A stretch of DNA of 64,000 bases from Acidobacteriota bacterium (lineage in GTDB: Bacteria > Acidobacteriota > UBA6911 > RPQK01 > JADFOI01), in contig OY760074.1 of NCBI GenBank assembly GCA_963663035.1, positions 214,358 through 278,357 of the forward strand, in the 5' to 3' direction. Below are positions 18,349 through 44,255 of this stretch, piece after piece. The position numbers were made by a program, and so were the translations under genes. Every line of letters begins with the position of its first letter. The stretch's first letter is position 1. Under the pieces are notes generated by a model that saw only the letters and a list, made by a program, of their open reading frames with translations, was not told the DNA's origin and ran no database searches.

Positions 18349-18364
18349 TGTGTAAACACTTTGT
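18349..18364. promoter_or_regulatory. GTAAA-N6-GTAAA direct repeat in the RR/VWA divergent promoter region
   Basis: GTAAACACTTTGTAAA. Same pentamer family as the motifs at 26250-26279 and 44241-44255. CpxR-type OmpR-family regulators bind GTAAA-N5-GTAAA. Confidence 0.3.
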
Positions 18365-18490
18365 AAAAGTTGGCGCCTGCCTTTTTACCGAGAGTTGTCT
18401 ACTAATTTGTTCTGTGGATCGGTCAGTATGGGTATGAGCGAAATGGCGTTCACAAACAACCAAAACCAAGACAACTGAAAGGAGAACAAC

Positions 18491-19963
18491 ATGAACGTAC
18501 TAACCAGGTTTCAAACATTTGGAAAATCTCGACGGGGCGGCATCCTGGCCTTACTGCTCGGTATCCTGGCCACAGTCCTCTGGGTGCAGGTTCGAGCGGG
18601 AGCCTTTCCGGGATACCCTCACGTGGGTGGTGTCGACCCTCAGCCGTCTGTCCACCCCAAAACGGGTGTCCAGTTCCAGGCGTCCCTCTCCCAGCCGATG
18701 ATCGTCCAGGGAAGTGATGGCACGGTCTACTTGGACCTGTCTGTCGTTACTCCCAAGATCTCGCGGCCGGACATCTTGAGGATGCCCACCGACACCATCG
18801 TGGTCCTGGATCGCAGCGGTTCCATGGCAGAGGACAACAAGTGGATGTTTGCCACCCAAGCTGTCCACTCGCTCCTGGACCGCCTCATGTCCGGAGACCG
18901 CATCGCTTTGGTGACCTTCGACACCCACGCCCGTGTCCAATCGCAATTGGTCTCGGCCAACGAAACGAACATCCAGCGCTTTAGAGATATCGTGAACAGC
19001 CTGAGTCCCGGAGCTTCGACCAATCTGGGCGACGGACTCCTGGCCGCCGAAAGGATGGCAGCAGCTTTACGCGTATCAGAGCGGGGGCGACGAGTCATCC
19101 TTCTGTCCGATGGTCAGGCCAATGTTGGTATCTCCCACCCGCTGGAACTCAATGCCATTGCCCGACGGATTGCGGATCAGGGCAGCATTCTTTCCACTGT
19201 TGGCATGGGACTGGGATTCAACGAGAACCTCCTGGCTTCCCTGGCTGACAACGGCATGGGCAGCTTCAGTTATCTCGAGCATCTGGAATCGCTGGGTACG
19301 ATCCTGGCCCAGGAGCTGGATGACTCCCGCGACGTCTACGCCGATAGTTCCCAGATGCGAATTCATCTCCCCATGGGTGTGGAGCTTGTGGAGGCCTCCG
19401 GTTATCCCTTTGTTCTGGAGGGAAGAACGGCCGTTATCCGGACCGGTCAGCTTTTCCAGGATAGTAACAAAAGCTTTATGGCCACTCTCCGGGTTGCCAA
19501 TCACGTGCCCGCTGAGTACACGCTGGGCAACATCGACTTGAGCTACCGGGTGGACGGTCATTCCTACAAACAGGAAGTCGAATCGTCAGGATTGACCATC
19601 GCCTGCGTTCCCGCAGAGCGAGAAGAGGAAGCGGTGGCTTCGATCGACAAGGATGTCTATCGGGACGCCTGGATCAGGAACAACCTGGGCTCGGTCATGA
19701 GAGAAGTGGGTGACTTCGTTCGCAAAGGAGACCGGCAACAAGCCGAGGAGCTGCTGGAAGACTATAAAGAACGCCTGGAGGAAGCAGATCAGGCCGTGCC
19801 CGGTATAAAGAAGGAGGCAACTGCTCAACTGGACGAGCTGAAAGCCAGAGTCGACGATGCCTTCCAGGGCCCCGCCCAGAGAGCCAAGCAGAACCGTGCC
19901 GCCAAGGCCTTCCTGGGTGAGAGTCAGGAGCTTCAAAGAGAAGTCAACAAGAACAACAACTAG
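18491..19963 (+). CDS. von Willebrand factor type A (VWA) domain membrane protein
   Basis: 490 aa. N-terminal TM. MIDAS motif DRSGSM ... SDG ... Coiled-coil/charged C-terminus. The stop TAG is the last 3 nt of the CTAG that flanks IS copy 1. Confidence 0.75.
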   Translation: MNVLTRFQTFGKSRRGGILALLLGILATVLWVQVRAGAFPGYPHVGGVDPQPSVHPKTGVQFQASLSQPMIVQGSDGTVYLDLSVVTPKISRPDILRMPTDTIVVLDRSGSMAEDNKWMFATQAVHSLLDRLMSGDRIALVTFDTHARVQSQLVSANETNIQRFRDIVNSLSPGASTNLGDGLLAAERMAAALRVSERGRRVILLSDGQANVGISHPLELNAIARRIADQGSILSTVGMGLGFNENLLASLADNGMGSFSYLEHLESLGTILAQELDDSRDVYADSSQMRIHLPMGVELVEASGYPFVLEGRTAVIRTGQLFQDSNKSFMATLRVANHVPAEYTLGNIDLSYRVDGHSYKQEVESSGLTIACVPAEREEEAVASIDKDVYRDAWIRNNLGSVMREVGDFVRKGDRQQAEELLEDYKERLEEADQAVPGIKKEATAQLDELKARVDDAFQGPAQRAKQNRAAKAFLGESQELQREVNKNNN

Positions 19964-21602
19964 CCCGGATTATTCATAAATTCTGAAGAAGGGGTCTGAT
20001 CGAGGGCACAAAAAGATGCCGTACCTATTTGATATAAAAGGGGTTATGAAACAACTCCAAACCAAAAAGGTACGGCCCAGCGATGCATCAGTCTGCCAGA
20101 TCAACTTGCCATCTCACCCTGACAGAAAAGTGGTGGCTCGATTCGATGGAGGCCGGCTCTCCTCCGATGCCGGGCTGCTGTGTCTGTACGCCCTGGATCA
20201 ACAGCACGGACTGACGGCTGGCTTTGCCTCCTGCCTGAAGGACGCTCGAGATAGCCGCTACGTCCGCCACCAGATTCGCGAACTGCTCACCCAGCGCAGC
20301 TTTCAGATCGTGGCCGGCTATGAGGACTGCAACGATGCCGACAGCTTGCGCTCGGATCCCATCTTCAAGACCGTGTGTGATCGGCTGCCGGAAAGCGATC
20401 CGGATCTGGCTTCTCAACCCACGCTGTCGCGACTGGAGAACTCGGTGGACTCGAAGGATCTCACTCGCCTGGGACAGTGGCTGCTGGAGACCTACTTGAA
20501 GCACCGCAAGAAGAGCCGGCCCGAGAAGATCATCCTGGACATCGACAGCACGGATGACGTCACGCATGGGCAGCAGGAGTTCAGCTTTTACCACGGCTAT
20601 TATCGCGAGCACATGTATCATCCGCTGCTGCTATTCGATGGCGAGACGGGCGATCTGGTATGTGCGCTACTGCGGCCCGGCAACCAGGGGGCGGCCGCCC
20701 ACGCGGTGGCGGTTCTCAAACGGGTGGTGGCCCGGATGCGCCAGGTTCTGGGATCCGATGTTCCGATCGAAGTGCGAGCCGACAGTGGCTTTGCGACGCC
20801 GGCACTGTACGAGTTCTGTGAGGAGGAAAAACTGCAGTATGTGGTGGGCTTTGCCCGCAACTCCCGGCTGGCGGCCACCGTCGAGCCCTTGGTTGAGCAG
20901 GTGCAAGCAGACTATGACGACTCAGGAGAAAAGCAACGCCAGTTCACCGAGCTCGTCTATCAGGCCGACAGTTGGGACCGGGAGCGGCGCATGGTGGCCA
21001 AGGTGGAAGTGAGCGAGCGCGGGTTCAACCGTCGCTTTGTGGTCACCAACCGCCAGGATCTCACGGCCGGGCAGCTGTATGACCACTACATCGGACGGGG
21101 CCAGTGCGAGAACTTCGTGAAAGCTTTCAAAAAAGATCTGGCCATGGATCGCTTGAGCTGCCACCGTTTCCTGGCCAACCAGTTCCGACTCTTCATCCAC
21201 GCCCTGGCCTATGTCTTAATCCTGCGCCTGCGGGATTACCTGTGCGGGACTCCCTGGCACAACCTGGAGATTGAGACGCTCCGCCGCCGCCTGTTCAAAA
21301 TCGGTGCCCGGGTTCGGGAAACTTCTCGTCGCATCTGGGTGCACCTGGCATCGTCTTATCCCGAACAAAAGCTCTTCGCATTACTGATGCACCGTCTGTG
21401 TCCCACCTGACGGTCCCCTGACTCCCTGCGCCAACACAGATATACAGCCCCCTGCGGGCCGAGCTGTTTCCGGAAGGGGCTCTCGCTTCATCTCTATTCG
21501 GCTCAACAAGCTTGGACGCCTTGTAATCGCACCTGAACACACTCTCAGCCCTGAACTTCCGCAGAAAATCGACACTCACCCCAAACTTATGAATAATTGC
21601 GG
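19964..21602 (+). mobile_element. Insertion sequence, IS4-superfamily (best fit IS1380 family), copy 1, 1639 bp, flanked by CTAG/CTAG
   Basis: Imperfect terminal IRs CCCGGATTATTCATAAATT ... AACTTATGAATAATTGCGG (start with CC). Single 464-aa DDE transposase ORF. CTAG at 19960-19963 and 21603-21606. Identical to copy 2 apart from one synonymous SNP seen at 20027. Confidence 0.8.
20016..21410 (+). CDS. DDE transposase (IS4/IS1380-like)
   Basis: 464 aa. DSTD...RADSGF...Y(2)R(3)E(3)K (YIGRGQCENFVKAFK) DDE_Tnp_1-type signature. N-terminal PTLSRLEN motif. Confidence 0.85.
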   Translation: MPYLFDIKGVMKQLQTKKVRPSDASVCQINLPSHPDRKVVARFDGGRLSSDAGLLCLYALDQQHGLTAGFASCLKDARDSRYVRHQIRELLTQRSFQIVAGYEDCNDADSLRSDPIFKTVCDRLPESDPDLASQPTLSRLENSVDSKDLTRLGQWLLETYLKHRKKSRPEKIILDIDSTDDVTHGQQEFSFYHGYYREHMYHPLLLFDGETGDLVCALLRPGNQGAAAHAVAVLKRVVARMRQVLGSDVPIEVRADSGFATPALYEFCEEEKLQYVVGFARNSRLAATVEPLVEQVQADYDDSGEKQRQFTELVYQADSWDRERRMVAKVEVSERGFNRRFVVTNRQDLTAGQLYDHYIGRGQCENFVKAFKKDLAMDRLSCHRFLANQFRLFIHALAYVLILRLRDYLCGTPWHNLEIETLRRRLFKIGARVRETSRRIWVHLASSYPEQKLFALLMHRLCPT

Positions 21603-21616
21603 CTAGGAGGAACATA

Positions 21617-22204
21617 ATGGCTATTACAAATCGTATAAGACGACTTTTTCATGCCGATGTACACGCTGTTTTGGACATCATCGAGGAGCCCGAAGCAATT
21701 CTGAAGCAGGCGATTCGAGAGATGCAGGAGGCTCTTGACTTGAAGAGAGCCCGGCTGGCCAGGGACCAAAGGAACCTGGCCTCGCTGAAAGGGGCCGAGA
21801 CCTATTCCAACGAGCAGCTGGCAAAGGTTCAGAAAGATGTGAAGCTTTGCTTGAGGCAAGGCTCTGAGGACCTGGCCCGCAAGACGGTGGGGCGTAAGCT
21901 TGCCCTGGAGAAACATGTGGCAGTTGTAAAGCAGCGCATCTCGGCCGGGGAGAAACTCCACCAGAAGAACAAGCAGGAGATTGATCTTCAGCAGGGCCAA
22001 CTCGAGTCGATAGTCGAAAAGGCCAAACTGTTTGTGCCGACGGCAGCGGAGGACTCAGTCTTCTCTGTTGCCGAGTCCATTCTCACCAGCGCTGAGCGGG
22101 GTGCCGGTCGAGGCTATCCCGGCGGCATGCAGGTGAGTGAGGAGGAAATCGAACTGGAATGGATACGCATTCGCGACGGTCTCGACAAGGGAGGTGCCTC
22201 ATGA
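21617..22204 (+). CDS. pspA: PspA/IM30-family protein
   Basis: 195 aa. N-terminus RIRRLFHADVHAVLDIIEEPEAILKQAIREMQEAL matches the PspA/Vipp1 N-terminal helix, with a coiled-coil body. The RBS GGAGG begins with the last G of the IS right-flank CTAG. Confidence 0.8.
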   Translation: MAITNRIRRLFHADVHAVLDIIEEPEAILKQAIREMQEALDLKRARLARDQRNLASLKGAETYSNEQLAKVQKDVKLCLRQGSEDLARKTVGRKLALEKHVAVVKQRISAGEKLHQKNKQEIDLQQGQLESIVEKAKLFVPTAAEDSVFSVAESILTSAERGAGRGYPGGMQVSEEEIELEWIRIRDGLDKGGAS

Positions 22205-22782
22205 AGCGACCCACCATCTTTGCGGGAATCGCTTTCGCTTTTGTGGTTGCTGTCTTCACGGTGCCGGTATGGTGGGGGGGCAAAACAGCCCTGCCTTTTT
22301 CACTGGCCTTCCGTTTGATCACACTGAGTGGCTATCTCGCCTATTGCTTCTATTTGTTGAGGACGGCCAAAACCCGCGTGGGGGCGCTCACCCTGGCCAC
22401 TGCCAATCTGGTGACCGCGCTGGCGCTCTCATTCCTGCCTCTTACCAACTCGATGATGGTCGGGGCACTGGTGGTCATGATCAGTCTGAACCGTTCACTG
22501 CTCTTTCAACGCAGTCTGATGGCCATTGCTCTTGATGGTCTGGTGTCGGGAGCAGGATTGATGTTTGCCGGGTATCTCTTCACCAAAACGGGAAGCGTGC
22601 CCGCGGCAATGTGGAGTTTCTTTCTGCTGCAGTCGGTATTCGTGCTGATTCCGCCGCGATCATGGGGAGAGGCCGGCCTCTTCTCAGCCGATGAAAGCGG
22701 GGACACAGTGGATGTTTTCGTTCACCCCCAACGGCAGGCAGAGGCGGCGCTGGAGCGGATTGTCCAGGAGGGCGTGGGGTGA
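22201..22782 (+). CDS. Integral membrane protein co-transcribed with pspA (hypothetical)
   Basis: ATGA overlap with the pspA stop. 4-5 predicted TM helices (MKRPTIFAGIAFAFVVAVFTVPVWW...). Confidence 0.5.
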   Translation: MKRPTIFAGIAFAFVVAVFTVPVWWGGKTALPFSLAFRLITLSGYLAYCFYLLRTAKTRVGALTLATANLVTALALSFLPLTNSMMVGALVVMISLNRSLLFQRSLMAIALDGLVSGAGLMFAGYLFTKTGSVPAAMWSFFLLQSVFVLIPPRSWGEAGLFSADESGDTVDVFVHPQRQAEAALERIVQEGVG

Positions 22783-25303: not shown

Positions 25304-25627
25304 ATGGTGACCCTCGAAGACTTTCAGAAATTAGAGATCCGGATCGGCAAGGTCCTCTCCGTAGAGAAAGTTGCTGGCGCGGATAAGCTGCTGAAATTCA
25401 TCTTTGACTTCGGCAGCGAACAAAGGCAAATCATCGCTGGAATGGCGACTTTCTTCCCGGAACCCTCGAGCTTGGAGGGAAAAGAAATGCCGGTCTTGCT
25501 CAATATTGAACCCAGGACCTTCAGGGGTGAGGTGAGCCACGGAATGATTATTGCAGCAGACGTTGATGGACATCCGGTTCTGCTGCATCCGGAAAGAGAA
25601 GTGGAACCGGGTAGTAGGGTTCTGTAG
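25304..25627 (+). CDS. tRNA-binding domain protein (CsaA/EMAP-II-like)
   Basis: 107 aa. LEIRIGKVLSVEKVAGADKLLKFIFDFG is the OB-fold tRNA-binding domain signature. Confidence 0.75.
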   Translation: MVTLEDFQKLEIRIGKVLSVEKVAGADKLLKFIFDFGSEQRQIIAGMATFFPEPSSLEGKEMPVLLNIEPRTFRGEVSHGMIIAADVDGHPVLLHPEREVEPGSRVL

Positions 25628-25653
25628 CCGGGACTATGCATAATCCCGGCTAG
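25624..25653. repeat. Solo IR-IR palindrome of MITE family A (minimal element or excision footprint)
   Basis: GTAGCCGGGACTATGCATAATCCCGGCTAG consists of two abutted MITE-A terminal repeats. The left flank GTAG contains the TAG stop of the tRNA-binding gene. The right flank is CTAG. Confidence 0.5.
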
Positions 25654-25670
25654 GAGGGAGCGAGCTCCCC

Positions 25671-26174
25671 TCACCGCCTGCCGCCGCCCTGGCCCTGACC
25701 TGGGCGCTGACCTCGACCCTGGCCTTGACCGCGGCCTGGGCGCTGGCCTTGACCATCACCCTGCCGTTGGCCCTGGCGCATGTTCGGTCGCCCTCCCTGC
25801 AGTTCTCGGTACTGTGTCATCTGCTCGTCACTGAGAATGGTGGCGAGTTTCTGGTTGGTCTCCTCTTGCAATTCTGCTCGCTCGTTTCGAAGAGCCTCCA
25901 TGGTTTCCTGGGAGCGTGACTGATCCTGGTACTGCTCCCGAAGCGCCTGCAGCTTTTCACGGCTCTCTTCAAAGATAGGCCGGATATCTTTCGCCTGTGG
26001 GTCCGTTAGGGCCAGTCGCTCCTTGAACCGCTCGAACTGTTCTTCAGGGTTTCGGTCACCCTGGGGAGATCCCATGGGTCGCTGTGCATAGGCAGACCAA
26101 CCCATGATCATAGCGAAGGCGATTGAGATGATCATCAGGGTTTTCACGATTCGTCTTTCCAAGGTTACTGTCAT
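25671..26174 (-). CDS. Spy/CpxP-family periplasmic protein (LTXXQ motifs)
   Basis: Start MTVTLERRIVKTLMIISIAFAMIMGWSAYAQ (signal peptide). Two LTxxQ-like motifs (LTDPQ, LSDEQ). Gly/Gln/Arg-rich tail. Confidence 0.6.
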   Translation of the reverse strand: MTVTLERRIVKTLMIISIAFAMIMGWSAYAQRPMGSPQGDRNPEEQFERFKERLALTDPQAKDIRPIFEESREKLQALREQYQDQSRSQETMEALRNERAELQEETNQKLATILSDEQMTQYRELQGGRPNMRQGQRQGDGQGQRPGRGQGQGRGQRPGQGQGGGRR

Positions 26175-26249: not shown

Positions 26250-26279
26250 GTGTAAAGAATTTGTAAGGATTTGTAAAGC
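26250..26279. promoter_or_regulatory. Triple direct repeat GTAAA-N6-GTAAG-N5-GTAAA upstream of the Spy/CpxP-like gene
   Basis: TGTAAAGAATTTGTAAGGATTTGTAAAG lies 76-105 nt upstream of the start. Read in gene orientation it is TTTAC-N5-CTTAC-N5-CTTTAC. Confidence 0.35.
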
Positions 26280-26293
26280 CGAGAAAGGGGGTT

Positions 26294-26494
26294 AACCCGC
26301 ACTTCTCACACCCGCTCTACTGCAGCGGCGCAATGATCCGCCCTGACTTTGTTGCGCGACCCGCAAGCGGGTACCCCTCGCGCGCCAGTCGGAGCCGCAG
26401 GCTTTAGCCTGCGGGCCCGTGGGCTAAAGCCCACGGCTCTGTTTTCCGGTCCTTCCGCCGCTTCGCGACGACCTGGTGTGAGAAATGCGGGTCA
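26294..26494. mobile_element. MITE family B (chimeric)
   Basis: Terminal IRs AACCCGCACTTCTCACACC ... GGTGTGAGAAATGCGGGTCAA (19 bp, 1 mismatch). Internally carries the GCGACCCGCAAGCGGGTACCCC module of MITE-A and both REP-A hairpins (GCAGGCTTTAGCCTGC, GTGGGCTAAAGCCCAC). Confidence 0.55.
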
Positions 26495-28090
26495 ATAGGG
26501 GGACAGAGCAGACCGTACCCATTTCTTTTGTCCCTTTTTTCCCCGCCAGCGCCAGCCTAGAATGCCGGCATACAGAATCAGGGAAACAACTGAGATCCAC
26601 TTCCCGATGCGAAAGCCTGCCGGCGCATACTCGATGCGAAGATGATGATTTCCCGCACCCAGGGGAACGGCTCGCAAGATGTAGTTGGCGGGCAGAAGGT
26701 CGTAATTCTGTTGAACGCTGCCGGGAAGGGCCACTGCTCGCCAGCCCTTGCTGTAGCTGTCCGTAATCAGCAAGATGGCGGGAGCCGGAAGGCGGGCTTC
26801 CACAACCAGATAATCCGTGCCCTCCTCGGTAATGGTGGCGGTACCAGGCCGGTCAGTTTTGACGGGAGCCGGGACAGGAGCAGTTTCCAGAATGACCTGT
26901 TGCCGAGGGTCGAAAGAGGAGTTGCTCATGGTGGCAAAGATGCGGCCGCGCTCCTGAATGAGCACCCAGTCCTGGATCAATTCCAGCCGCGACAGGGGCG
27001 AGGGGATCTCCTCGAAGCCCTGTCTGCCGCCCTCTGAGAAAAATACATAACGACCTCGCAGCATCCCGAAGAGGGGATGGATGCGCGACAGTTCCAGATA
27101 CTGACTAGCGGTCTGAGGGTTCTGGCCCTGGGTAAATGTCATGAACTCGGCATAGCGCTTGAGCACGCCGGGATCATGTCCCCATAGGTCCTGGGCACCT
27201 GTGCTGAGGGCACTGTTCGGGTTGGGGGGCAGTGAAACACGATAATCACCCGGATTGGCTTCGTAGAATTGCTGTATAAGAGGAAGCCGTGTCGTTTCCA
27301 GATCAAAGGTCGGTCTGTTGGCTGTGGCAAAGATAAACATCTCCAAGGCGGCAAGCAACGGTACGAGATACACGGCTCTGGGAGCCACCCGTGTGCGCCG
27401 CAGCAGCAGACTAAAGAGCAGGCATGAAGCGCTGCAAAGGAGCACACCCTTTGCAGTAAACACGCCTGCACCGTTGACAAAGGCTTGGTCTTGATAGCTA
27501 CCCAGTGGCAGATAGGACTCCCCAGTGGCGGCCACCGCTGACATGAGGGATCCCCACGTCCCGCTGAACCCGGAAGCTGCCGAAAGGTATATCCACAGGC
27601 CCACAGCACCCACCGCCAGTCCTGCGAATGACAGTAGCTTTGCCAGACGTTGACGCCAGGGAGGATCGTGCAGGAGATTGTCCAGGCCAATGGCGGAGAG
27701 CATGACGCTGAACATGGCTACCAGAAAAATGAACTTTGAATTGCCCCGAAACATGTCGAATCCCGGTACGGACCTGTAAAGCAGATTGAAGAGGGGTGTG
27801 TAAGTCCCCAGAGCAAGAACCGATAAAATCAGCGTCATGGAGACCGAAGACAGCCGCAGTTTCCGGCTGCCCCGCACAGCTCCCGACACTGCCAGGACAA
27901 AACCAGTCACACCTATGAACAGCGACATCTCCCACAGATACCACCGTCCCCAGTAACTGCTCATGCCGCCGAAGAATCCTGGGACCAGGAGGGTGAGAAA
28001 GTTCTCTGGCGGGAAGGAGAACATGGCCGCAAACGCATAGGATGTTCCGCTGCTGCGTACACTCTCGCCGGCTGCCTCCAGGCCAGCTAG
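26492..28090 (-). pseudogene. YfhO-family membrane protein gene, C-terminal part, split by IS copy 2
   Basis: Polytopic C-terminal region. It continues in frame with the N-terminal part at 29730-30432 if the IS and one CTAG are removed. Confidence 0.6.
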
Positions 28091-29729
28091 CCCGGATTAT
28101 TCATAAATTCTGAAGAAGGGGTCTGATCGAGGGCACAAAAAGATGCCGTACCTCTTTGATATAAAAGGGGTTATGAAACAACTCCAAACCAAAAAGGTAC
28201 GGCCCAGCGATGCATCAGTCTGCCAGATCAACTTGCCATCTCACCCTGACAGAAAAGTGGTGGCTCGATTCGATGGAGGCCGGCTCTCCTCCGATGCCGG
28301 GCTGCTGTGTCTGTACGCCCTGGATCAACAGCACGGACTGACGGCTGGCTTTGCCTCCTGCCTGAAGGACGCTCGAGATAGCCGCTACGTCCGCCACCAG
28401 ATTCGCGAACTGCTCACCCAGCGCAGCTTTCAGATCGTGGCCGGCTATGAGGACTGCAACGATGCCGACAGCTTGCGCTCGGATCCCATCTTCAAGACCG
28501 TGTGTGATCGGCTGCCGGAAAGCGATCCGGATCTGGCTTCTCAACCCACGCTGTCGCGACTGGAGAACTCGGTGGACTCGAAGGATCTCACTCGCCTGGG
28601 ACAGTGGCTGCTGGAGACCTACTTGAAGCACCGCAAGAAGAGCCGGCCCGAGAAGATCATCCTGGACATCGACAGCACGGATGACGTCACGCATGGGCAG
28701 CAGGAGTTCAGCTTTTACCACGGCTATTATCGCGAGCACATGTATCATCCGCTGCTGCTATTCGATGGCGAGACGGGCGATCTGGTATGTGCGCTACTGC
28801 GGCCCGGCAACCAGGGGGCGGCCGCCCACGCGGTGGCGGTTCTCAAACGGGTGGTGGCCCGGATGCGCCAGGTTCTGGGATCCGATGTTCCGATCGAAGT
28901 GCGAGCCGACAGTGGCTTTGCGACGCCGGCACTGTACGAGTTCTGTGAGGAGGAAAAACTGCAGTATGTGGTGGGCTTTGCCCGCAACTCCCGGCTGGCG
29001 GCCACCGTCGAGCCCTTGGTTGAGCAGGTGCAAGCAGACTATGACGACTCAGGAGAAAAGCAACGCCAGTTCACCGAGCTCGTCTATCAGGCCGACAGTT
29101 GGGACCGGGAGCGGCGCATGGTGGCCAAGGTGGAAGTGAGCGAGCGCGGGTTCAACCGTCGCTTTGTGGTCACCAACCGCCAGGATCTCACGGCCGGGCA
29201 GCTGTATGACCACTACATCGGACGGGGCCAGTGCGAGAACTTCGTGAAAGCTTTCAAAAAAGATCTGGCCATGGATCGCTTGAGCTGCCACCGTTTCCTG
29301 GCCAACCAGTTCCGACTCTTCATCCACGCCCTGGCCTATGTCTTAATCCTGCGCCTGCGGGATTACCTGTGCGGGACTCCCTGGCACAACCTGGAGATTG
29401 AGACGCTCCGCCGCCGCCTGTTCAAAATCGGTGCCCGGGTTCGGGAAACTTCTCGTCGCATCTGGGTGCACCTGGCATCGTCTTATCCCGAACAAAAGCT
29501 CTTCGCATTACTGATGCACCGTCTGTGTCCCACCTGACGGTCCCCTGACTCCCTGCGCCAACACAGATATACAGCCCCCTGCGGGCCGAGCTGTTTCCGG
29601 AAGGGGCTCTCGCTTCATCTCTATTCGGCTCAACAAGCTTGGACGCCTTGTAATCGCACCTGAACACACTCTCAGCCCTGAACTTCCGCAGAAAATCGAC
29701 ACTCACCCCAAACTTATGAATAATTGCGG
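28091..29729 (+). mobile_element. Insertion sequence, IS4-superfamily (best fit IS1380 family), copy 2, 1639 bp, flanked by CTAG/CTAG
   Basis: Same IRs and ORFs as copy 1. CTAG at 28087-28090 and 29730-29733. Inserted in the yfhO-like gene. Confidence 0.8.
28143..29537 (+). CDS. DDE transposase (identical to 20016-21410)
   Basis: Protein identical over 464 aa. Confidence 0.85.
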   Translation: MPYLFDIKGVMKQLQTKKVRPSDASVCQINLPSHPDRKVVARFDGGRLSSDAGLLCLYALDQQHGLTAGFASCLKDARDSRYVRHQIRELLTQRSFQIVAGYEDCNDADSLRSDPIFKTVCDRLPESDPDLASQPTLSRLENSVDSKDLTRLGQWLLETYLKHRKKSRPEKIILDIDSTDDVTHGQQEFSFYHGYYREHMYHPLLLFDGETGDLVCALLRPGNQGAAAHAVAVLKRVVARMRQVLGSDVPIEVRADSGFATPALYEFCEEEKLQYVVGFARNSRLAATVEPLVEQVQADYDDSGEKQRQFTELVYQADSWDRERRMVAKVEVSERGFNRRFVVTNRQDLTAGQLYDHYIGRGQCENFVKAFKKDLAMDRLSCHRFLANQFRLFIHALAYVLILRLRDYLCGTPWHNLEIETLRRRLFKIGARVRETSRRIWVHLASSYPEQKLFALLMHRLCPT

Positions 29730-30432
29730 CTAGGGCTGCGGCTCCCACATACATGCTGCCCAATCCCAGCACCAGCCGTGGTCGTTCCCGTGCCCGGATA
29801 AGACGAAGCCCGCTATAGAGCCCGGCGGCGATAGCCGTGTAAAACACATACTGGGGATGGCCGGCAAGAATCTGCATGGTGATGGCAAACATACCCATCA
29901 GACACCAGGTGAAGGAACGTTCTTGGAGCAGGCCATCAATGGCCAGAAAGAGCAGTGGTGCCCATACCATGGCGCAGAGATTGGGGAGGTGCCCGGCAGA
30001 GACATGCAGGAAATAGGGACCGGAGAACATAAAGAGGATGGATGAAAGGAGGCAAGCTGCTGGATGAAGCCCCCGGTGAAAGGTCCAGAGATAGATAAAC
30101 AGCCCGGCCAGGAACACATGCAGCGCAATGCTCACATTAATTGCCTTGGCAAGCGGCAGCACCAGATACACCCAGTTGGGTGGATAGAGCAAGGCGGACT
30201 GAAAGCCTCCAAAGTATGGCATCCCCGAAAAGATGTGCGGATTCCACAGGGCCAGGTTGCCTTGGCCCAGCTGGCTGAAACCAAACTCGCGCCAATAGAC
30301 GAACTGCGAGGACAGGTCGGTGCCCAATTGGGAGAGAATCACCTCTTTCGACGTGAACAGCACATCGACGAACATGAGAAGCGTCAATCCAAAGAGAACC
30401 AGAAGAGCCAGTAGGAAAGTTTTCTCTCGCAT
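29730..30432 (-). pseudogene. YfhO-family membrane protein gene, N-terminal part
   Basis: MREKTFLLALLVLFGL...DLSSQFVYWREFGFSQ...NPHIFSGMPYFGG is the characteristic YfhO N-terminus. The ORF-track extension to 29422 reads into the IS. Confidence 0.6.
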
Positions 30433-34400: not shown

Positions 34401-34601
34401 ATAGGCGGGATTATGCATAAATTGTCTACTGCAGTGCCGCAATCATCCACGCTGACTGCGTTGTGCTTCCTTGGGCTCCTCGGCGTACTGCATGAGTACG
34501 CCGAGGAGCCCGACCCGCAAGCGGGTACCCCTCGCAGGCCTTGTCATCGCGGCGCCTGCTGCACTTCGTCACGAAAATCTATGCATAACCCCGCCTCCTA
34601 G
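34401..34601. mobile_element. MITE family A, copy 3, inside the glycan locus
   Basis: ATAGGCGGGATTATGCATAAATTGTCTACTGCAGTGCCGC ... ATGCATAACCCCGCCTCCTAG. Carries a 14-bp-stem hairpin CTCCTCGGCGTACTGCATGAGTACGCCGAGGAG. Left flank is a degenerate ATAG. Confidence 0.65.
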
Positions 34602-34613
34602 GCAGGGACCCAA

Positions 34614-34640
34614 GCCGGGATTATGCATAACCCCGGCTAC
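34614..34640. repeat. Second solo IR-IR palindrome of MITE-A, immediately right of copy 3
   Basis: GCCGGGATTATGCATAACCCCGGCTAC. Indicates nested or repeated insertion at this site. Confidence 0.4.
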
Positions 34641-40320: not shown

Positions 40321-40346
40321 GAGTGAGTCCGGTCACCGACTCACTC
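40321..40346. terminator. 9-bp-stem hairpin overlapping the thiolase stop codon
   Basis: GAGTGAGTC-CGGTCACC-GACTCACTC. No U-tract. Confidence 0.3.
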
Positions 40347-41549
40347 GGTCTCGACGGCCACTGCCACGGCTTCTCCTCCTCCCAAACAGAGGGAGGCGAT
40401 GCCCGAGTGCAGTCCCCGATCTTTGAGGGCATGGACGAGGGTTGTGAGCAAGCGAGCGCCGGTGGCTCCCAGAGGATGGCCCAGCGCAATGGCACCGCCA
40501 TTGACGTTGACCTTGTTCCAATCCCACCCCATATCGGAAAGCTCGGAGCCGTTGGCCAGAACCTGGGCAGCAAAGGCTTCGTTCAGCTCGATGAGATCCA
40601 CATCTGACAGCTTCCAGCCGGTTTTCTCGAGCAGGAGAGGGATCGCTTTGGCGGGGGCAGCAAAAATGTATTTTGGGTCCACCGCCGCCTGGGCATAGCC
40701 GACGATGCGAGCCAGGACCGTGGCGCCAAGCGCCTCGGCCTGGGTCTGGCTGGCCAGGACCAGGGCTGCTGCTGCATCGTTGAGGCCAGGGGAGTTGCCC
40801 GCGGTGACTTTACCGTCAGGCTTGAAGATGGGTTTGAGCTTCTTGAGCGCTTTCAGCGAGGTATCCCGACGAGGTGCTTCATCCGTATCAATCACACTCA
40901 TCTGAGCCTTACGTCCTTTGACGGTGAGCGGGACAATCTCCTGCTTGAACCTGCCGCCATCGATTGCAGCGACCGCCTTCTCATGACTCGAGAGTGCAAA
41001 GCGATCCATGGCCTCGCGAGTGATCCCAAATTCATCGGCTATAAACTCAGCGGCCTCTCCCATGACCCAGTCCTCAAAGGCGCACCAGAGACCATCGACC
41101 ACCAGGGCATCTCTCAGCCCGGCGTTTCCGTAGCGCAGCTGATCCATGCGGCCATCCAGGATGTGGGGAGCCCGACTCATGCTCTCCACACCCCCCACTA
41201 CGAACAAGTTCCCGTCCTCTGCTCGGATGGCCTGCGCCGCCAGCATCACGGCTTTGAGACTCGAGCCGCAAACCTTATTGATGGTGGTGGCACCGACCGT
41301 GCTGGGGAGTCCACCGAAAATAGCGGACTGGCGAGCGATGTTCTGGCCCAGGCCAGCTGAAACGACGTTCCCCATGAGCACTTCATCAATCTTTGCAAGA
41401 TCTGGCAATGCTGCTCTTTCCACTGCCGCACGAACAACCGAAGCGCCCAATTCCGCAGCCGGGACCGGAGCCAGGGCCGATCGAAAGCGACCAATCGGTG
41501 TGCGCACAGCGCTCAAAATCACCGCACTGTCCAATCTGTTTAAGCTCAC
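40341..41549 (-). CDS. Acetyl-CoA C-acetyltransferase (thiolase II)
   Basis: 402 aa. AVRTPIGRF, NKVCGSSLKAV (active-site Cys) and C-terminal GGGEAVAV are canonical thiolase motifs. Confidence 0.85.
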   Translation of the reverse strand: MSLNRLDSAVILSAVRTPIGRFRSALAPVPAAELGASVVRAAVERAALPDLAKIDEVLMGNVVSAGLGQNIARQSAIFGGLPSTVGATTINKVCGSSLKAVMLAAQAIRAEDGNLFVVGGVESMSRAPHILDGRMDQLRYGNAGLRDALVVDGLWCAFEDWVMGEAAEFIADEFGITREAMDRFALSSHEKAVAAIDGGRFKQEIVPLTVKGRKAQMSVIDTDEAPRRDTSLKALKKLKPIFKPDGKVTAGNSPGLNDAAAALVLASQTQAEALGATVLARIVGYAQAAVDPKYIFAAPAKAIPLLLEKTGWKLSDVDLIELNEAFAAQVLANGSELSDMGWDWNKVNVNGGAIALGHPLGATGARLLTTLVHALKDRGLHSGIASLCLGGGEAVAVAVETE

Positions 41550-41903
41550 TGTTAATGACCTCCTAGATGCCTTCTTTGAGCAATTTCCTTACAAATGAGA
41601 CAAGCTTTACTTGAAGGCTTCATTCCGGGATTCTGGCAGCGGGTGTTCAGGGAGGTCAAGATCGAGGCCGCACAAGCCCTTCGACCGCAGGCGTTGCCTA
41701 AGGCTACGTCGAGGATCGAAGGGCGCGGAGAACGAAGAGCTTGGCCTTCCTGGACACCCGCGCTAACCCTGAAACACAAGTCGTACCAATATCTTATCAT
41801 TCACGAAAGAGCTACTCCCAGAGCTGCCAGGCGAGTGACCGAAGTTTGGGCAGAAAACGAAGTCATTGTAAGCTGTGGCGAACGAGAGGGAGATTCTTTG
41901 AGC

Positions 41904-44078
41904 ATGATTAGGCGGTATCTTGGTTTAGGCGTCATTCTGTTCAGCTGGTCTGCGTCCTCTGGACTTGCTGCCCAGGACGGTGCGGTGGAAGGCTCCGCAG
42001 AAAAAGTCACCACGGCTCAACGGATCGACACCAAGCTTGTCATCGATGGCGAACTTGACGAACCCGAATGGGATCTTGTGGAACCTATCAGCGATTTTGT
42101 TCAACAGGACCCGAGCCCAGGCGAGGCCATAACCGAGCGAACCGAGGTTCGAATTCTCTACGATGATGAATTTCTCTACTTCGGTATTTACTGCTTCGAT
42201 TCAGAAGGTGAGGAAGGGATTCTTGTCACCAATTTGCAAAGAGATTTTCGTCCCTTGGACGGCGATGTGTTTAGCCTGCTTCTGGATACTTTCGATGACG
42301 ATCGCAACGGATTTCTCTTGAGTACCAACCCCTTCGGAGCCAAACGCGACACCCAGGTCGGAGAGGACGGAAGGATGAGTAATGGGGATTGGGATGGGAT
42401 CTGGCATGTCCAAAGCAAGATCACTGAAAGTGGCTGGCAAGCGGAAATGGCGATCCCCTTTACGACCCTCCGCTTTCGGAATACAGAAGAGCAGGTCTGG
42501 GGTCTGAACCTCCAACGACGCATCCGTCGTAAGAATGAGAGTGCCCACTGGGCTCCTATTCCACGCCAGTACAGAATCAGTCGCATCTCACGAGCCGGAA
42601 GACTGGAGGGTCTCAGCGGGATCCGGCCCGGCCGCAATCTGTATGTCAAGCCCTATATCAGCATGCCGGTCACGCGTCGGCAGGATGACGACGTCGATTT
42701 TCTTCCCGATGCTGGATTGGACCTGAAGTATGGGCTGAGTTCCGAGTTGACCCTGGATTTGACGGCCAACACAGACTTCTCACAGGTGGAAGCCGATGAT
42801 CAGCAGATCAACCTGACTCGATTCAGCCTCTTCTTTCCAGAGAAGCGGGACTTTTTTCTGGAAAATGCCTCAGCCTTCCAGTTTGGCCCGCCAGGTGGTG
42901 GGGGTCTCCTGGGTGGTTTTCGGGACTTGATTCCCTTTTTCAGCCGACGAATTGGACTTTCCCAGGGCAGTCTCGTTCCGATACTGGGAGGAGCCCGCAT
43001 GACGGGGAAGGTCGGGGACTACACTGTGGGTCTCCTTTCCCTGCAGGACGATGATTTCGAGGGGACTCCCTCTACCAACTTCTCGGTGATGCGGGTGCGT
43101 CGAGATGTTCTCAGCAACTCATCGATGGGAGGAATTTTTGTCAACAAACATGAACTGGACGGTGATTCCAATCGCACCTACGGAGCCGATGTCAATTTCA
43201 GCTTCTATAGGTTTCTGGATGTCTCCACTTTCCTACTCAAGACCGACACTCCCGAATTCCAGGACAAGGATCTGGCCGGCTTTTTCAGGGCCGCCTGGAG
43301 AGGCCCGCTGCTGACGGTCCAGGCAGACCATCTCTCCATTCAAGAAAACTTCAACGCGGAAGTAGGCTTTATTCCCCGTAAAGACATCCGGAAAACAACG
43401 GGAACGTTTGGGATACGGCCGAGGCCCCGCGAGCGGATCCCCTGGATTCGTGAATTCGAACCCTCCATCTCCATGACCTATCTTACCGACCAGGAAAACG
43501 TCCTGCAGACGCGAACCATCAACGGTCGCTTCTCAGTCAGGTTTCAAAATGAGGAACTGATCTGGTTTGCTGCCCAGTCGCGGTTTGAGCTCTTGACTGA
43601 AGACTTCGACATCCGGAGCGATCAGATGATTCCCGCAGGAGGCTATCAGTTCAATGAGTACACACTTTCGCTCCAAAGTAATGCTAGCCGTATGTTCAGT
43701 GGGAGCTTCAGAGCGGTCACGGGAGATTTCTGGGACGGTGAGAAGGACTCCTATCGTTTCAGCTTTCGCTTTCAACCCATGCCCCAATTTCGATCAGAGA
43801 TCACCTGGAGCCACGACGATGTCAGGCTGCCCTCAGGGGATTTTGACACCGAGCTGGTCACCACTCGTCTGAACTATAGCTTCAACCCCAGCATGTTTCT
43901 CAATGCCCTGATCCAGTACAACAGCGATCGGAAGGAGCTCCGCAGCAATATTCGTTTCAATTTGATTCACAAGCCACTGAGCGACTTTTTCCTGGTCTAC
44001 AACGAGCGGAGATCTTCAACGGGAGACGTAGCGGAACGAGCACTCATTGCCAAGGTGACCTACGTCATTGGCCTCTAG
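41904..44078 (+). CDS. Secreted CBM9-like/DUF5916-type protein
   Basis: Start MIRRYLGLGVILFSWSASSGLAAQ (signal). LDEPEW...FLYFGIYC resembles carbohydrate-binding family 9-like modules followed by a large beta-rich domain. The upstream in-frame extension to 41595 has no start support. The TAG stop is part of the MITE flank CTAG. Confidence 0.5.
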   Translation: MIRRYLGLGVILFSWSASSGLAAQDGAVEGSAEKVTTAQRIDTKLVIDGELDEPEWDLVEPISDFVQQDPSPGEAITERTEVRILYDDEFLYFGIYCFDSEGEEGILVTNLQRDFRPLDGDVFSLLLDTFDDDRNGFLLSTNPFGAKRDTQVGEDGRMSNGDWDGIWHVQSKITESGWQAEMAIPFTTLRFRNTEEQVWGLNLQRRIRRKNESAHWAPIPRQYRISRISRAGRLEGLSGIRPGRNLYVKPYISMPVTRRQDDDVDFLPDAGLDLKYGLSSELTLDLTANTDFSQVEADDQQINLTRFSLFFPEKRDFFLENASAFQFGPPGGGGLLGGFRDLIPFFSRRIGLSQGSLVPILGGARMTGKVGDYTVGLLSLQDDDFEGTPSTNFSVMRVRRDVLSNSSMGGIFVNKHELDGDSNRTYGADVNFSFYRFLDVSTFLLKTDTPEFQDKDLAGFFRAAWRGPLLTVQADHLSIQENFNAEVGFIPRKDIRKTTGTFGIRPRPRERIPWIREFEPSISMTYLTDQENVLQTRTINGRFSVRFQNEELIWFAAQSRFELLTEDFDIRSDQMIPAGGYQFNEYTLSLQSNASRMFSGSFRAVTGDFWDGEKDSYRFSFRFQPMPQFRSEITWSHDDVRLPSGDFDTELVTTRLNYSFNPSMFLNALIQYNSDRKELRSNIRFNLIHKPLSDFFLVYNERRSSTGDVAERALIAKVTYVIGL

Positions 44079-44228
44079 CCGGGATTATGCATAAATTTTC
44101 TACTGCAGTGCCGCAATCATCCACGCTGACTGCGTTGTGCGACCCGCAAGCGGGTACCCCTTCGCACGCCTTGTCATCGCGGCGCCTGCGGCACTTCGTC
44201 ACGAAAACCTATGCATAATCCCGGCTAG
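44075..44228. mobile_element. MITE family A, copy 4 (154 bp including CTAG flanks)
   Basis: CTAGCCGGGATTATGCATAAATTTTCTACTGCAGTGCCGC ... CTATGCATAATCCCGGCTAG. The left CTAG overlaps the TAG stop of the upstream gene. Confidence 0.7.
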
Positions 44229-44240
44229 TCCATCCTGAGC

Positions 44241-44255
44241 TTTACAAAAACTTAC
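44241..44255. promoter_or_regulatory. TTTAC-N5-CTTAC direct repeat 45 nt upstream of the EF-hand/redoxin gene
   Basis: TTTACAAAAACTTAC. Same sequence and same orientation relative to the gene as the motif upstream of the Spy/CpxP-like gene. Confidence 0.3.

What the first reader, a model, noticed from the sequence alone, without database searches (positions are those of the whole stretch)
18349..44255. Shared GTAAA/GTAAG direct-repeat motif upstream of the response-regulator gene, the Spy/CpxP-like gene and the EF-hand/redoxin gene: candidate envelope-stress regulon
Seen in sequence:
- 26250-26279, upstream of the Spy/CpxP-like gene: GTAAA-N6-GTAAG-N5-GTAAA on the plus strand, i.e. TTTAC-N5-CTTAC-N5-CTTTAC in gene orientation, 76-105 nt from the start;
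- 44241-44255, upstream of the EF-hand/redoxin gene: TTTAC-AAAAA-CTTAC in the same orientation relative to that gene, 45 nt from the ATG;
- 18349-18364, in the divergent response-regulator/VWA promoter region: GTAAA-N6-GTAAA.

Established knowledge:
- E. coli CpxR (OmpR family) binds GTAAA-N5-GTAAA;
- its strongest targets are cpxP and spy (LTXXQ periplasmic proteins) and periplasmic folding/redox factors.

Inference: the OmpR-family regulator at 17615-18325, or another CpxR-like factor, controls the LTXXQ protein and the secreted redoxin.
Basis: partly seen in the sequence, partly recalled or inferred. Interest (0 to 1): 0.5.

Follow-up and report, generated by a model that had tools for sequence, protein, structure and literature searches.

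The report
Operator of a PspA-linked two-component system
The repeated TGTAAA/TTTACA boxes are real, conserved regulator-binding-type sites that most likely let the neighbouring sensor kinase/response regulator pair control itself, a membrane-stress (VWA-PspA) operon, a Spy-like periplasmic protein and a secreted calcium-binding selenoprotein; it works like the E. coli Cpx system but is not related to it by descent.

Summary
The motif is real, with one coordinate correction: S1 lies at 18351-18367. The true half-site is (T)TTGTAAR, repeated every 10-11 bp. Paired half-sites occur at only three places in 64 kb, all intergenic and all oriented the same way relative to a gene.

Comparative data tie the box to the adjacent OmpR-family regulator (17615-18316/18325):
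- Of 10 orthologues at 58% identity or more (Acidobacteriota relatives, a Nitrospirales MAG, Thiocystis violacea), seven keep a perfect TTTACA-N5-TTTACA pair. Three keep variants.
- Eight of the ten also have a TAnnnT -10-like hexamer 21-22 nt downstream of the box.
- None of 155 more distant paralogues has the box.

The regulator is not a CpxR orthologue. Its DNA-binding domain is closest to WalR/VicR, whose consensus is TGTWAH-N5-TGTWAH. The box also fits the cyanobacterial RpaB HLR1 motif.

The divergent partner operon is VWA-PspA-membrane protein.

S2 (Spy-like gene) and S3 (EF-hand/redoxin gene, with an in-frame UGA) are kept in relatives while their flanks diverge or carry insertions.

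Verdict: a plausible, uncharacterised envelope-stress regulon. It is a new member of a known kind, and binding has not been tested.

The parts
18351..18367 (-). S1 box. In regulator orientation it reads TTTACA-N5-TTTACA. It is the candidate autoregulatory operator of the RR-HK operon in the divergent RR/VWA region.
   Evidence: The box is kept in orthologues L090, L091, L092, L097, L010, L011, L098, L177 and L178 while the spacer and flanks diverge. It is absent from 0 of 155 paralogue upstream regions.
18324..18329 (-). TAGAAT, a -10-like hexamer 21 nt downstream of S1. It overlaps the first annotated ATG. The second ATG (18316-18314, giving MKPAKPKLL...) follows 7 nt later, which suggests a leaderless RR mRNA.
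   Evidence: The geometry box, 21-22 nt, TA[C/G/T/A]AAT, 6-7 nt, ATG is the same in the window, L090, L091, L092, L097 and L010. L178 has the box, 22 nt and TAGAAT followed by a long leader. That transcription starts here is inferred, not measured.
18383..18400 (+). Second conserved element on the VWA side: TTTTACC-N6-TGTCT. It consists of an inverted half-site 14-15 nt from S1 plus TGTCT. Its function is unresolved.
   Evidence: It is conserved in the window, L097, L090, L091, L092, L010, L011 (as TGCCT), L098, L012 (as AGCCT) and L177.
17615..18325 (-). OmpR/PhoB-family response regulator. Its probable true start is at 18316.
   Evidence: Pfam Response_reg and Trans_reg_C. NCBIfam best hits are MtrA, YycF, RpaB and PhoB, all below cut-off. 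The DNA-binding domain is closest to VicR/WalR.
15618..17618 (-). Sensor histidine kinase, translationally coupled to the regulator (ATGA overlap). It has an N-terminal transmembrane segment, a roughly 400-aa extracytoplasmic domain, a second transmembrane segment, then HisKA and HATPase_c.
   Evidence: The same kinase architecture is found in L010 and the other orthologous loci.
18491..19963 (+). Membrane-anchored VWA protein with a DxSxS MIDAS motif. It is the first gene of the divergent operon.
   Evidence: Synteny.
19957..21607 (+). IS element (DDE_Tnp_1_4 transposase) inserted in the short VWA-PspA spacer. It separates PspA from the regulated promoter in this genome.
   Evidence: 99.9% identical to a second copy at 28084-29734. 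Relatives have only 11-17 nt between VWA and PspA.
21617..22782 (+). PspA/IM30 gene (21617-22204) followed by a roughly 190-aa multi-pass membrane protein. These are the ancestral downstream genes of the VWA operon.
   Evidence: Pfam PspA_IM30, E = 1.8e-15. The VWA-PspA-TM order is conserved in L090, L091, L092 and L010. The same genes occur in a different order in L177 and L178.
26251..26277 (-). S2 box. In gene orientation it has three repeats, TTTACAaatcCTTACAaattcTTTACA, upstream of the Spy-like gene.
   Evidence: It is kept in L005-L009. It is also kept, as TTTACAaaacATTACAcactcTTGACA, in front of a homologue that is only 44% identical in L094.
25671..26174 (-). Secreted Spy/LTXXQ-like protein (DUF4890-type) with two L-[TS]-[DE]-x-Q motifs.
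44241..44256 (+). S3 box, TTTACAaaaaCTTACA, upstream of the EF-hand/redoxin gene. A -10-like TACTAT hexamer at 44289-44294 lies 32 nt downstream.
   Evidence: L093 and L094 keep TTTACAaaaaaTTACA, then 32 nt, then TAATAT, with different flanks. The box is absent in more distant L095 and L096.
44300..46003 (+). Secreted protein with multiple EF-hands, an AhpC/TSA-like thioredoxin fold and a DsbD_N-like domain. An in-frame UGA at 45116-45118 (GCLT-U-PPF) makes it a candidate selenoprotein of 567 aa.
   Evidence: The UGA and its context are conserved in L093-L096. A hairpin lies 18 nt downstream of the UGA.

Best explanation
The boxes are tandem half-sites (consensus nTTTACAa, 10-11 bp apart) for a dimer of the adjacent OmpR/PhoB-family response regulator.

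Proposed mechanism:
1. The kinase (15618-17618), which has a roughly 400-aa extracytoplasmic domain, senses an envelope-related signal.
2. It phosphorylates the regulator, which then binds the boxes and recruits RNA polymerase to promoters that lack a usable -35 element.
3. At S1 the box sits at about -50 to -34, 21 nt upstream of a conserved TAnAAT hexamer. This gives positive autoregulation of RR-HK. Together with the conserved inverted element TTTTACC-N6-TGTCT, it probably also controls the divergent VWA-PspA-membrane-protein operon.
4. In this acidobacterial lineage the same regulator has additionally acquired two targets: the Spy/LTXXQ-like periplasmic protein (S2) and the secreted EF-hand/redoxin selenoprotein (S3, box one helical turn further upstream).

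What is shown: the motif exists, is non-random, is conserved, and is specific to this regulator orthogroup and to these three promoters. The promoter geometry and the gene content are also shown.

What is inferred: physical binding, activation rather than repression, leaderless transcription, and the nature of the signal.
For: (1) The motif is non-random and exclusive in the window.

(2) It co-varies with the regulator.
- A perfect TTACA-N6-TTACA pair in regulator orientation lies within 60 nt of the start in 6 of 8 relatives at 58% identity or more.
- L178 also has a perfect pair, about 190 nt upstream of the start.
- One-base variants are found in L092 and L177, and a displaced variant in L012.
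- None of 155 relatives below 58% identity has it, across 41 kb of upstream DNA.
- The carriers include a 40%-GC Nitrospirales MAG and Thiocystis violacea, where the rest of the intergenic region is unrelated.

(3) The box lies a fixed 21-22 nt from a TAnnnT hexamer in 8 genomes. No canonical -35/-10 pair with 16-18 nt spacing is found in any of the three regions.

(4) The regulator's DNA-binding domain is closest to VicR/WalR/YycF. Their consensus TGTWAH-N5-TGTWAH (PMC4168254) is matched exactly by S1.

(5) S2 and S3 are footprints.
- S2 is kept before a homologue only 44% identical.
- S3 is kept with diverged flanks.
- In the window, a MITE plus other repeats (at S2) and a whole gene plus a MITE (at S3) were inserted immediately upstream of the boxes without touching them.

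(6) In 220 kb of related loci, all 17 perfect pairs lie at these three orthologous promoter types.

(7) All target products are envelope or secreted proteins, and PspA is a hallmark of membrane stress.
Against: - There are no binding, expression or transcription-start data.
- Only 64 kb of the source genome plus about 220 kb from relatives could be scanned, so genome-wide specificity is unknown.
- S2 and S3 use mostly 10-bp phasing and a CTTACA repeat, whereas all regulator-promoter boxes use 11-bp phasing. They could therefore belong to a paralogous regulator.
- For S2 in L005-L009 the whole promoter is about 95% identical, so that comparison alone is weak.
- More distant EF-hand/redoxin homologues (L095, L096) lack the box.
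- The recognition-helix motif RTVD(I/V)HI is shared by many OmpR-family proteins, so similarity to WalR does not prove specificity.
- The -10 proposed for S2 (TCTTAA) is poor.
- It is not known how one box could serve the oppositely oriented VWA promoter.
Confidence: 0.68

Rival explanations
1. The boxes, at least S2 and S3, are bound by a different OmpR-family regulator encoded elsewhere in the genome. A WalR/RpaB/PhoP-like global factor would be a candidate. On this view the adjacent regulator is only one of its targets, or binds only S1.
For: S2 and S3 share 18 of 20 bases with each other and use 10-bp phasing (TTTACAAA-N2-CTTACAAA). This fits RpaB HLR1 (PMC6525291) better than the 11-bp S1 type. 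TGTAAA-type repeats are recognised by several OmpR-family clades: CpxR (PMC3158067), WalR (PMC4168254) and RpaB. S2 and S3 lie 8 and 26 kb from the regulator.
Against: The S1-type box tracks this regulator orthogroup across phyla and is absent from 155 paralogue promoters. S2 itself contains one 11-bp pair (TGTAAA-N5-TGTAAG). No other OmpR-family regulator is encoded in the window. Half-site sequences are the same at all three sites.
Confidence: 0.17
2. The repeats are bound by the adjacent regulator, but mainly to repress. At S1 this would be negative autoregulation by occlusion of the promoter or transcription start, since the box is only 34 nt from the start codon.
For: S1 lies 25-34 nt from the annotated start codons. 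For RpaB, sites close to the transcription start repress (PMC6525291). An AAAGG that could be a Shine-Dalgarno sequence lies between the box and the first ATG in four genomes.
Against: A TAnAAT hexamer is conserved exactly 21-22 nt downstream of the box. In six genomes it is followed 6-7 nt later by the ATG of the conserved MKP... N-terminus. In L178 the same box-to-hexamer distance is kept although a roughly 190-nt leader follows. That places the box at about -50 to -34, an activating position as at pho boxes (the pho-box comparison is general knowledge). No alternative upstream promoter was detected.
Confidence: 0.1
3. There is no dedicated factor. The repeats are AT-rich promoter features (TTTACA as -35-like or UP-like elements), or sequence carried in by the neighbouring MITE-like repeats.
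For: TTTACA matches the -35 consensus TTGACA at 5 of 6 positions. The third S2 repeat is TTGACA in L094. MITE-like repeats abut both S2 and S3.
Against: Both half-sites and their 10-11 bp phasing are conserved. The distance to the -10-like hexamer is 21-22 or 32 nt, not 16-18, and the promoter scan finds no sigma-70 pair. Relatives without the MITEs keep the boxes. Three other MITE copies (4692, 6292, 34401) have no box next to them. Chance expectation is 0.03-0.07 sites per window.
Confidence: 0.05

Closest known systems
E. coli CpxAR envelope-stress system and the CpxR box GTAAA-N(4-8)-GTAAA (PMC3158067)
   Same: OmpR-family regulator paired with a periplasm-sensing kinase. GTAAA direct repeats. 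A box in a divergent promoter next to the regulator's own operon. Targets include an LTXXQ/Spy-type periplasmic protein and a periplasmic thiol-redox protein.
   Different: The regulator is not a CpxR orthologue. The kinase has a roughly 400-aa periplasmic domain and no detected HAMP domain. The half-site is longer (TTTGTAAR). The divergent partner is VWA-PspA rather than cpxP. The organism is an uncultured Acidobacteriota-like bacterium.
WalRK/VicRK of Firmicutes, consensus TGTWAH-N5-TGTWAH (PMC4168254)
   Same: These are the closest solved DNA-binding domains (E = 9e-20 to 1.3e-16). S1 (TGTAAA-N5-TGTAAA) matches the consensus exactly. Both control the cell envelope.
   Different: The NCBIfam YycF score is 193 against a cut-off of 340, so it is not an orthologue. 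No WalK-type PAS or HAMP architecture was detected. The gene context is different (PspA/VWA). The third position of some repeats is G (TGTAAG), which lies outside H.
Cyanobacterial RpaB and its HLR1 motif (G/T)TTACA(T/A)(T/A)-N2-repeat (PMC6525291)
   Same: S2 and S3 read TTTACAAA-N2-CTTACAAA in gene orientation, almost exactly HLR1. The logic is position-dependent, with sites around -50 activating. RpaB is among the three best NCBIfam hits.
   Different: The score is 191 against a cut-off of 330, so it is not an orthologue. This is not a cyanobacterium and has no photosynthesis genes. Here the regulator has a cognate kinase adjacent to it.
LiaRS-LiaIH and other PspA-linked two-component systems (PMC11237479)
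   Same: A two-component system is encoded next to, and presumably controls, a PspA-family gene together with a small membrane protein.
   Different: LiaR is a different regulator type. The paper describes it as REC-wHTH; NarL/FixJ family is my own classification. Here the regulator is OmpR/PhoB-type, a VWA protein is part of the module, and no LiaF/Toastrack or PspC is present. Neither PSP survey mentions a vWA partner.
PhoB/pho-box type promoters (general knowledge)
   Same: Tandem direct repeats at 11-bp phasing replace the -35 element. Autoregulation is positive.
   Different: The half-site sequence differs. NCBIfam PhoB models score below their cut-offs. No phosphate-related genes are nearby.

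Membership tests
CpxR regulon (CpxAR) | The regulator is an orthologue of CpxR | tested here: not met
   CpxR is not among the 25 best NCBIfam models; the best are MtrA, YycF, RpaB and PhoB. The CpxR DNA-binding domain 4uht scores E = 9e-6, against 9e-20 for VicR.
CpxR regulon (CpxAR) | CpxA-type kinase (short periplasmic domain plus HAMP) | tested here: not met
   Pfam finds only HisKA and HATPase_c. About 400 aa lie between the two transmembrane segments. CpxA is not among the 25 best NCBIfam kinase models.
CpxR regulon (CpxAR) | GTAAA-N(4-8)-GTAAA boxes upstream of targets | tested here: met
   However, the same sequence also fits the WalR and RpaB consensus, so this feature is not diagnostic.
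CpxR regulon (CpxAR) | cpxP is transcribed divergently from cpxRA | tested here: not met
   The divergent operon is VWA-PspA-TM. The Spy-like gene lies about 8 kb away.
OmpR/PhoB-family response regulator with a tandem direct-repeat operator | Receiver domain plus winged-helix Trans_reg_C domain | tested here: met
   Pfam E = 2.8e-29 and 1.3e-20.
OmpR/PhoB-family response regulator with a tandem direct-repeat operator | Direct repeats of a 5-8 nt half-site at about one helical turn, in promoter regions and conserved with the regulator | tested here: met
OmpR/PhoB-family response regulator with a tandem direct-repeat operator | The regulator physically binds the repeats in a phosphorylation-dependent way | not testable with these tools
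   Needs EMSA, footprinting or DAP-seq.
WalR/VicR (YycF) | Orthology to YycF, with WalK as partner | tested here: not met
   NCBIfam YycF scores 193 bits against a cut-off of 340. WalK scores 181 against 725.
WalR/VicR (YycF) | TGTWAH-N5-TGTWAH operator | tested here: met
   S1 and the boxes of L010, L011, L090, L091, L097 and L178 match exactly. The consensus is taken from PMC4168254.
Psp (phage-shock) envelope-stress systems | A PspA/IM30 protein in the regulated module | tested here: met
   Pfam PspA_IM30, E = 1.8e-15. PspA is present next to the regulator in L090, L091, L092, L010, L098, L177 and L178. In the window an IS element separates it from the promoter.
Psp (phage-shock) envelope-stress systems | Known Psp partners (PspBC, PspF, LiaF/Toastrack) | tested here: not met
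   No such Pfam domains were found in the proteins scanned or in the precomputed annotations of neighbouring genes.
Spy/CpxP/LTXXQ periplasmic proteins | Sequence membership (Pfam LTXXQ / NCBIfam Spy) and LTXXQ motifs | tested here: inconclusive
   The window protein alone is below threshold (LTXXQ E = 0.025; Spy E = 0.014). The family profile's top four PDB hits are all Spy (E = 1.5e-5), and 5 of 13 members hit LTXXQ. The AF2 model was poor (pLDDT 63) and the Foldseek search gave nothing significant.

The most novel reading that the evidence does not exclude
The box is the operator of a previously undescribed two-component envelope-stress module that is conserved across phyla.

The module consists of an OmpR-type regulator, a kinase with a large periplasmic domain, and a divergent VWA-PspA-membrane-protein operon. 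It is found in Acidobacteriota, a Nitrospirales MAG and the gammaproteobacterium Thiocystis violacea. Its composite operator is AGACA-N6/7-GGTAAAA-N13/14-TTTACA-N5-TTTACA-N21/22-TAnAAT.

In this lineage it has convergently assembled a Cpx-like regulon of a Spy-like chaperone and a Ca-binding selenoprotein oxidoreductase. The metal-binding VWA and EF-hand targets hint at a divalent-cation or envelope-integrity signal.
Probability: 0.45. Interest if true: 0.6.

Novelty: new member of a known kind. Interest (0 to 1): 0.45.

Why it matters
- It gives a concrete, testable operator and a minimal regulon for an uncharacterised two-component system that sits next to PspA in several phyla. One carrier is a cultured organism (Thiocystis violacea, GCA_016583565.1), in which experiments are feasible.
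- It adds a VWA-PspA-membrane-protein operon under OmpR-type control to the list of PspA contexts. Neither PSP survey I checked mentions a vWA partner.
- It is a cautionary example. A 'CpxR box' found by eye is really the generic TGTAAA repeat shared by several OmpR-family clades, so motif resemblance alone should not be used to name a regulator.
- It links a secreted EF-hand selenoprotein to an envelope-stress circuit.

Tried and rejected
1. The motif as part of the MITE-like repeats that abut S2 and S3. Rejected: three other copies lack it, and relatives without the MITEs keep the boxes.
2. TTTACA as an ordinary -35 element. Rejected on spacing (21-22 or 32 nt) and the negative sigma-70 scans.
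3. CpxR orthology. Rejected.
4. A genome-wide scan. Not possible: the source genome is not among the GTDB representatives (best regulator hit 61%).
5. Fold evidence for the Spy-like protein. The AF2 model was of low confidence (pLDDT 63) and Foldseek against the PDB gave nothing significant. The profile-sequence search was more informative.
6. Fibrobacter regulators (53-56% identity). They sit inside another operon with no PspA or VWA. The one box found there (L013:8636) lies before a phosphofructokinase-like gene, so these were treated as not orthologous or uninformative.
7. One-mismatch hits at L012:2022-2255. They lie in or at the end of coding sequence in 41%-GC DNA, so they were judged to be chance.
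8. Rfam. No RNA family was found anywhere in the window.
9. A promoter for the VWA side. No convincing -10 could be placed, and the conserved TTTTACC-N6-TGTCT element remains unexplained.

Full report
**Observation**

The three sites are present.
- S1 is TGTAAAcacttTGTAAA at 18351-18367.
- S2 is TGTAAAgaattTGTAAGgattTGTAAA at 26251-26277.
- S3 is TTTACAaaaaCTTACA at 44241-44256.

The real half-site is longer than GTAAA: it is (T)TTGTAAR, often followed by G. The last two repeats of S2 share 18 of 20 bases with S3.

The motif is not due to chance.
- GTAAR-N5-GTAAR occurs 3 times against 0.03 expected.
- GTAAR-N6-GTAAR occurs twice against 0.07 expected.
- With TGTAAR at 10/11-bp phasing and at most one mismatch, only these three loci are found in 64 kb.
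- A matrix scan finds nothing else convincing.
- A fourth GTAAA-N5-GTAAA at 50791 lies inside a TctA ORF and lacks the TGT extension.

All three sites are intergenic and read TTTACA...TTTACA towards a gene.

**Genes**

- 17615-18325(-) encodes an OmpR/PhoB-family response regulator.
- 15618-17618(-) encodes its translationally coupled kinase. It has two transmembrane segments enclosing about 400 aa, followed by HisKA and HATPase_c. No HAMP domain was detected.
- 18491-19963(+) encodes a membrane-anchored VWA protein.
- 25671-26174(-) encodes a secreted protein with two L-[TS]-[DE]-x-Q motifs. On its own it scores below threshold for LTXXQ (E = 0.025) and for Spy (E = 0.014). A profile of its family, however, has Spy as its top four PDB hits (E = 1.5e-5 to 1.3e-4), and 5 of 13 members hit Pfam LTXXQ. 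An AlphaFold model was of low confidence, and the fold search was uninformative.
- 44300-46003(+) encodes a signal peptide, several EF-hands, the start of an AhpC/TSA-like fold and a DsbD_N-like domain. An in-frame TGA at 45116-45118 sits in the sequence GCLT-U-PPF.

**The regulator is not CpxR**

The best NCBIfam models are MtrA, YycF, RpaB and PhoB, all below their cut-offs. CpxR is not among the top 25.

The DNA-binding domain alone is closest to VicR/WalR/YycF (E = 9e-20 to 1.3e-16). The CpxR domain scores only 9e-6.

The motif itself fits several published consensus sequences.
- S2 and S3 in gene orientation (TTTACAAA-N2-CTTACAAA) fit the RpaB HLR1 motif (PMC6525291).
- They also fit GTAAA-N(4-8)-GTAAA of CpxR (PMC3158067).

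The motif is therefore generic for a subset of OmpR-family regulators and cannot be used to name one.

**Link between box and regulator**

The source genome is not among the GTDB species representatives, but orthologues of the regulator could be fetched.

A box in the same orientation, directly upstream of the regulator gene, was found as follows.
- A perfect TTTACA-N5-TTTACA pair is present in L090 (84% identity), L091 and L097 (79%), L178 (68%), L010 (61%, a Nitrospirales MAG with 40% GC) and L011 (59%).
- L098 (58%) has a perfect TTACA pair, reading TTTACA then GTTACA.
- One-base variants occur in L092 (70%) and in Thiocystis violacea L177 (60%, TTTACG twice).
- A displaced variant occurs in L012 (58%).

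In a systematic count, 6 of 8 relatives at 58% identity or more had a perfect pair within 60 nt of the start. None of 155 relatives below 58% did, across 41 kb of upstream DNA.

In an alignment of five intergenic regions, few blocks are conserved: the VWA start and its ribosome-binding site, the box, a -10-like hexamer, and one further element.

In 220 kb of related loci, all 17 perfect pairs lie at orthologues of S1, S2 or S3.

**Promoter geometry**

The proximal repeat is followed after 21-22 nt by a TAnnnT hexamer:

| Locus | Hexamer |
|---|---|
| window | TAGAAT |
| L090, L091, L092 | TACAAT |
| L097 | TAAAAT |
| L010 | TATAAT |
| L178 | TAGAAT |
| L177 | TAGGGT |

In six genomes the ATG of the conserved MKP... 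N-terminus follows 6-7 nt later. In the window this is the second ATG, at 18316. This suggests a leaderless mRNA, with the box at about -50 to -34.

L178 and L177 keep the same box-to-hexamer distance even though long leaders follow.

No canonical sigma-70 pair with 16-18 nt spacing exists in any of the three regions. This arrangement is typical of activator-dependent promoters in which the regulator site replaces the -35 element, as at pho boxes (general knowledge). The position of the transcription start is inferred, not measured.

In relatives the divergent operon is VWA-PspA-membrane protein of about 190 aa (L090-L092, L010). L177 and L178 carry the same genes in a different order, and L098 has PspA directly divergent from the regulator.

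In the window, a 1651-bp IS element (19957-21607) sits in the short VWA-PspA spacer. It is 99.9% identical to the copy at 28084-29734. PspA (21617-22204; Pfam E = 1.8e-15) and the membrane protein are therefore cut off from the regulated promoter.

Two surveys of PSP systems describe PspA-linked two-component systems such as LiaRS, but neither mentions a vWA partner.

**S2 and S3 in relatives**

S2:
- It is kept in L005-L009, but there the whole promoter is about 95% identical, so this is weak evidence.
- In L094 it is kept as TTTACAaaacATTACAcactcTTGACA before a homologue that is only 44% identical. The block acattttcg..ccttcgtcttaac is conserved alongside it.

S3:
- It is kept in L093 and L094 (TTTACAaaaaaTTACA), with a conserved 32-nt distance to a TAATAT hexamer (TACTAT in the window) and diverged flanks.
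- It is absent in more distant L095 (74% identity) and L096 (68%). Membership of this gene in the regulon is therefore lineage-specific.

In the window, insertions end just upstream of both boxes. At S2 these are a MITE fragment and other repeats. At S3 they are a DUF5916 gene plus a MITE. This is consistent with the boxes marking the upstream edge of the functional promoters.

**Interpretation**

The most likely reading (about 0.68) is this:
1. The kinase senses an envelope-related signal.
2. The phosphorylated regulator binds the tandem TTTACA repeats.
3. It activates its own operon and the divergent VWA-PspA operon.
4. In this lineage it also activates the Spy-like protein and the EF-hand/redoxin selenoprotein.

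This is functionally Cpx-like, but it arose in a different regulator clade.

The rivals are:
- a different OmpR-family factor acting at S2 and S3 (0.17), because those sites use 10-bp phasing whereas all regulator promoters use 11 bp;
- repression instead of activation (0.10);
- no dedicated factor at all (0.05).

**Unexplained**

A second conserved element lies on the VWA side: TTTTAC[C/A]-N6-TGTCT (18383-18400). Its first part is an inverted half-site 14-15 nt from the box. It is conserved from the window to L010, L098 and Thiocystis. It may be a third half-site serving the VWA/PspA promoter, or the site of another factor.

**Limits**

- There are no binding, expression or transcription-start data.
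- Only 64 kb of the source genome could be scanned.
- It cannot be shown that the relatives carrying S2 and S3 also carry the regulator on the same chromosome.

Noticed in passing
window 45116-45118 (gene 44300-46003); also L093-L096: There is an in-frame TGA inside a GCLT-U-PPFLRNVS motif (CxxU) at the start of an AhpC/TSA-like fold. The reading frame continues for 294 more codons. The TGA and its context are conserved in four relatives, and a hairpin (GUCUCCA-GUU-UGGAGAC, 45137-45153) follows 18 nt later. This is a candidate secreted EF-hand selenoprotein of 567 aa that gene callers split in two.
   Followed up: partly
window 19957-21607 and 28084-29734: Two 99.9% identical copies of a 1651-bp IS element (DDE_Tnp_1_4 transposase). 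One splits the VWA-PspA operon at a CTAG. The other interrupts a YfhO-like membrane glycosyltransferase gene (26492-28024 and 29422-30432). Another assembly with the identical Spy-like protein (L001) shows no transposase in the flank that carries one in L002/L003, so the second insertion may be polymorphic. A 43-nt fragment of the IS also occurs at 52743-52785.
   Followed up: partly
window 4692-4903, 6292-6440, 26292-26378, 34401-34594, 44075-44224 (short ends also at 25624-25654 and 34610-34640): A MITE-like repeat family of 150-210 nt. Its terminal inverted repeats (CTAGCCCGCATTATGCATAAATT) closely resemble the ends of the IS element (CTAGCCCGGATTATTCATAAATT). These are probably non-autonomous derivatives of that IS. 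Two copies abut the S2 and S3 boxes.
   Followed up: partly
window 26382-26440, 57420-57502, 61686-61727, 62899-62940: A second short repeat family built around the hairpin GCCCGCAGGCTAAAGCCTGCGGGC or GCCCGTGGGCTAAAGCCCACGGGC. It looks REP-like or terminator-like. One copy scores as an intrinsic terminator at 26417-26436.
   Followed up: no
window 18383-18400; same element in L010, L011, L012, L090-L092, L097, L098 and L177: The conserved element TTTTAC[C/A]-N6-TGTCT lies on the VWA/PspA side of the divergent promoter, 14-15 nt from the regulator box. No function has been assigned.
   Followed up: partly
window 41595-44078: A DUF5916/CBM9-like gene lies between the thiolase gene and the EF-hand gene. 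In relative L094 those two genes are directly divergent, only 157 nt apart. The gene, with its flanking MITE, therefore looks like an insertion in this genome.
   Followed up: no
L177 (Thiocystis violacea NRRF01000040.1) 4680-4990: The roughly 350-nt region between the regulator box and the regulator start codon contains two tandem arrays, (ggtggcag) x7 and (caactga) x11. Their meaning is unknown; they might allow phase variation or changes in leader length.
   Followed up: no
window, whole: TGTAAA shows a strand asymmetry: 20 occurrences on the + strand and 4 on the - strand. This was not examined further.
   Followed up: no
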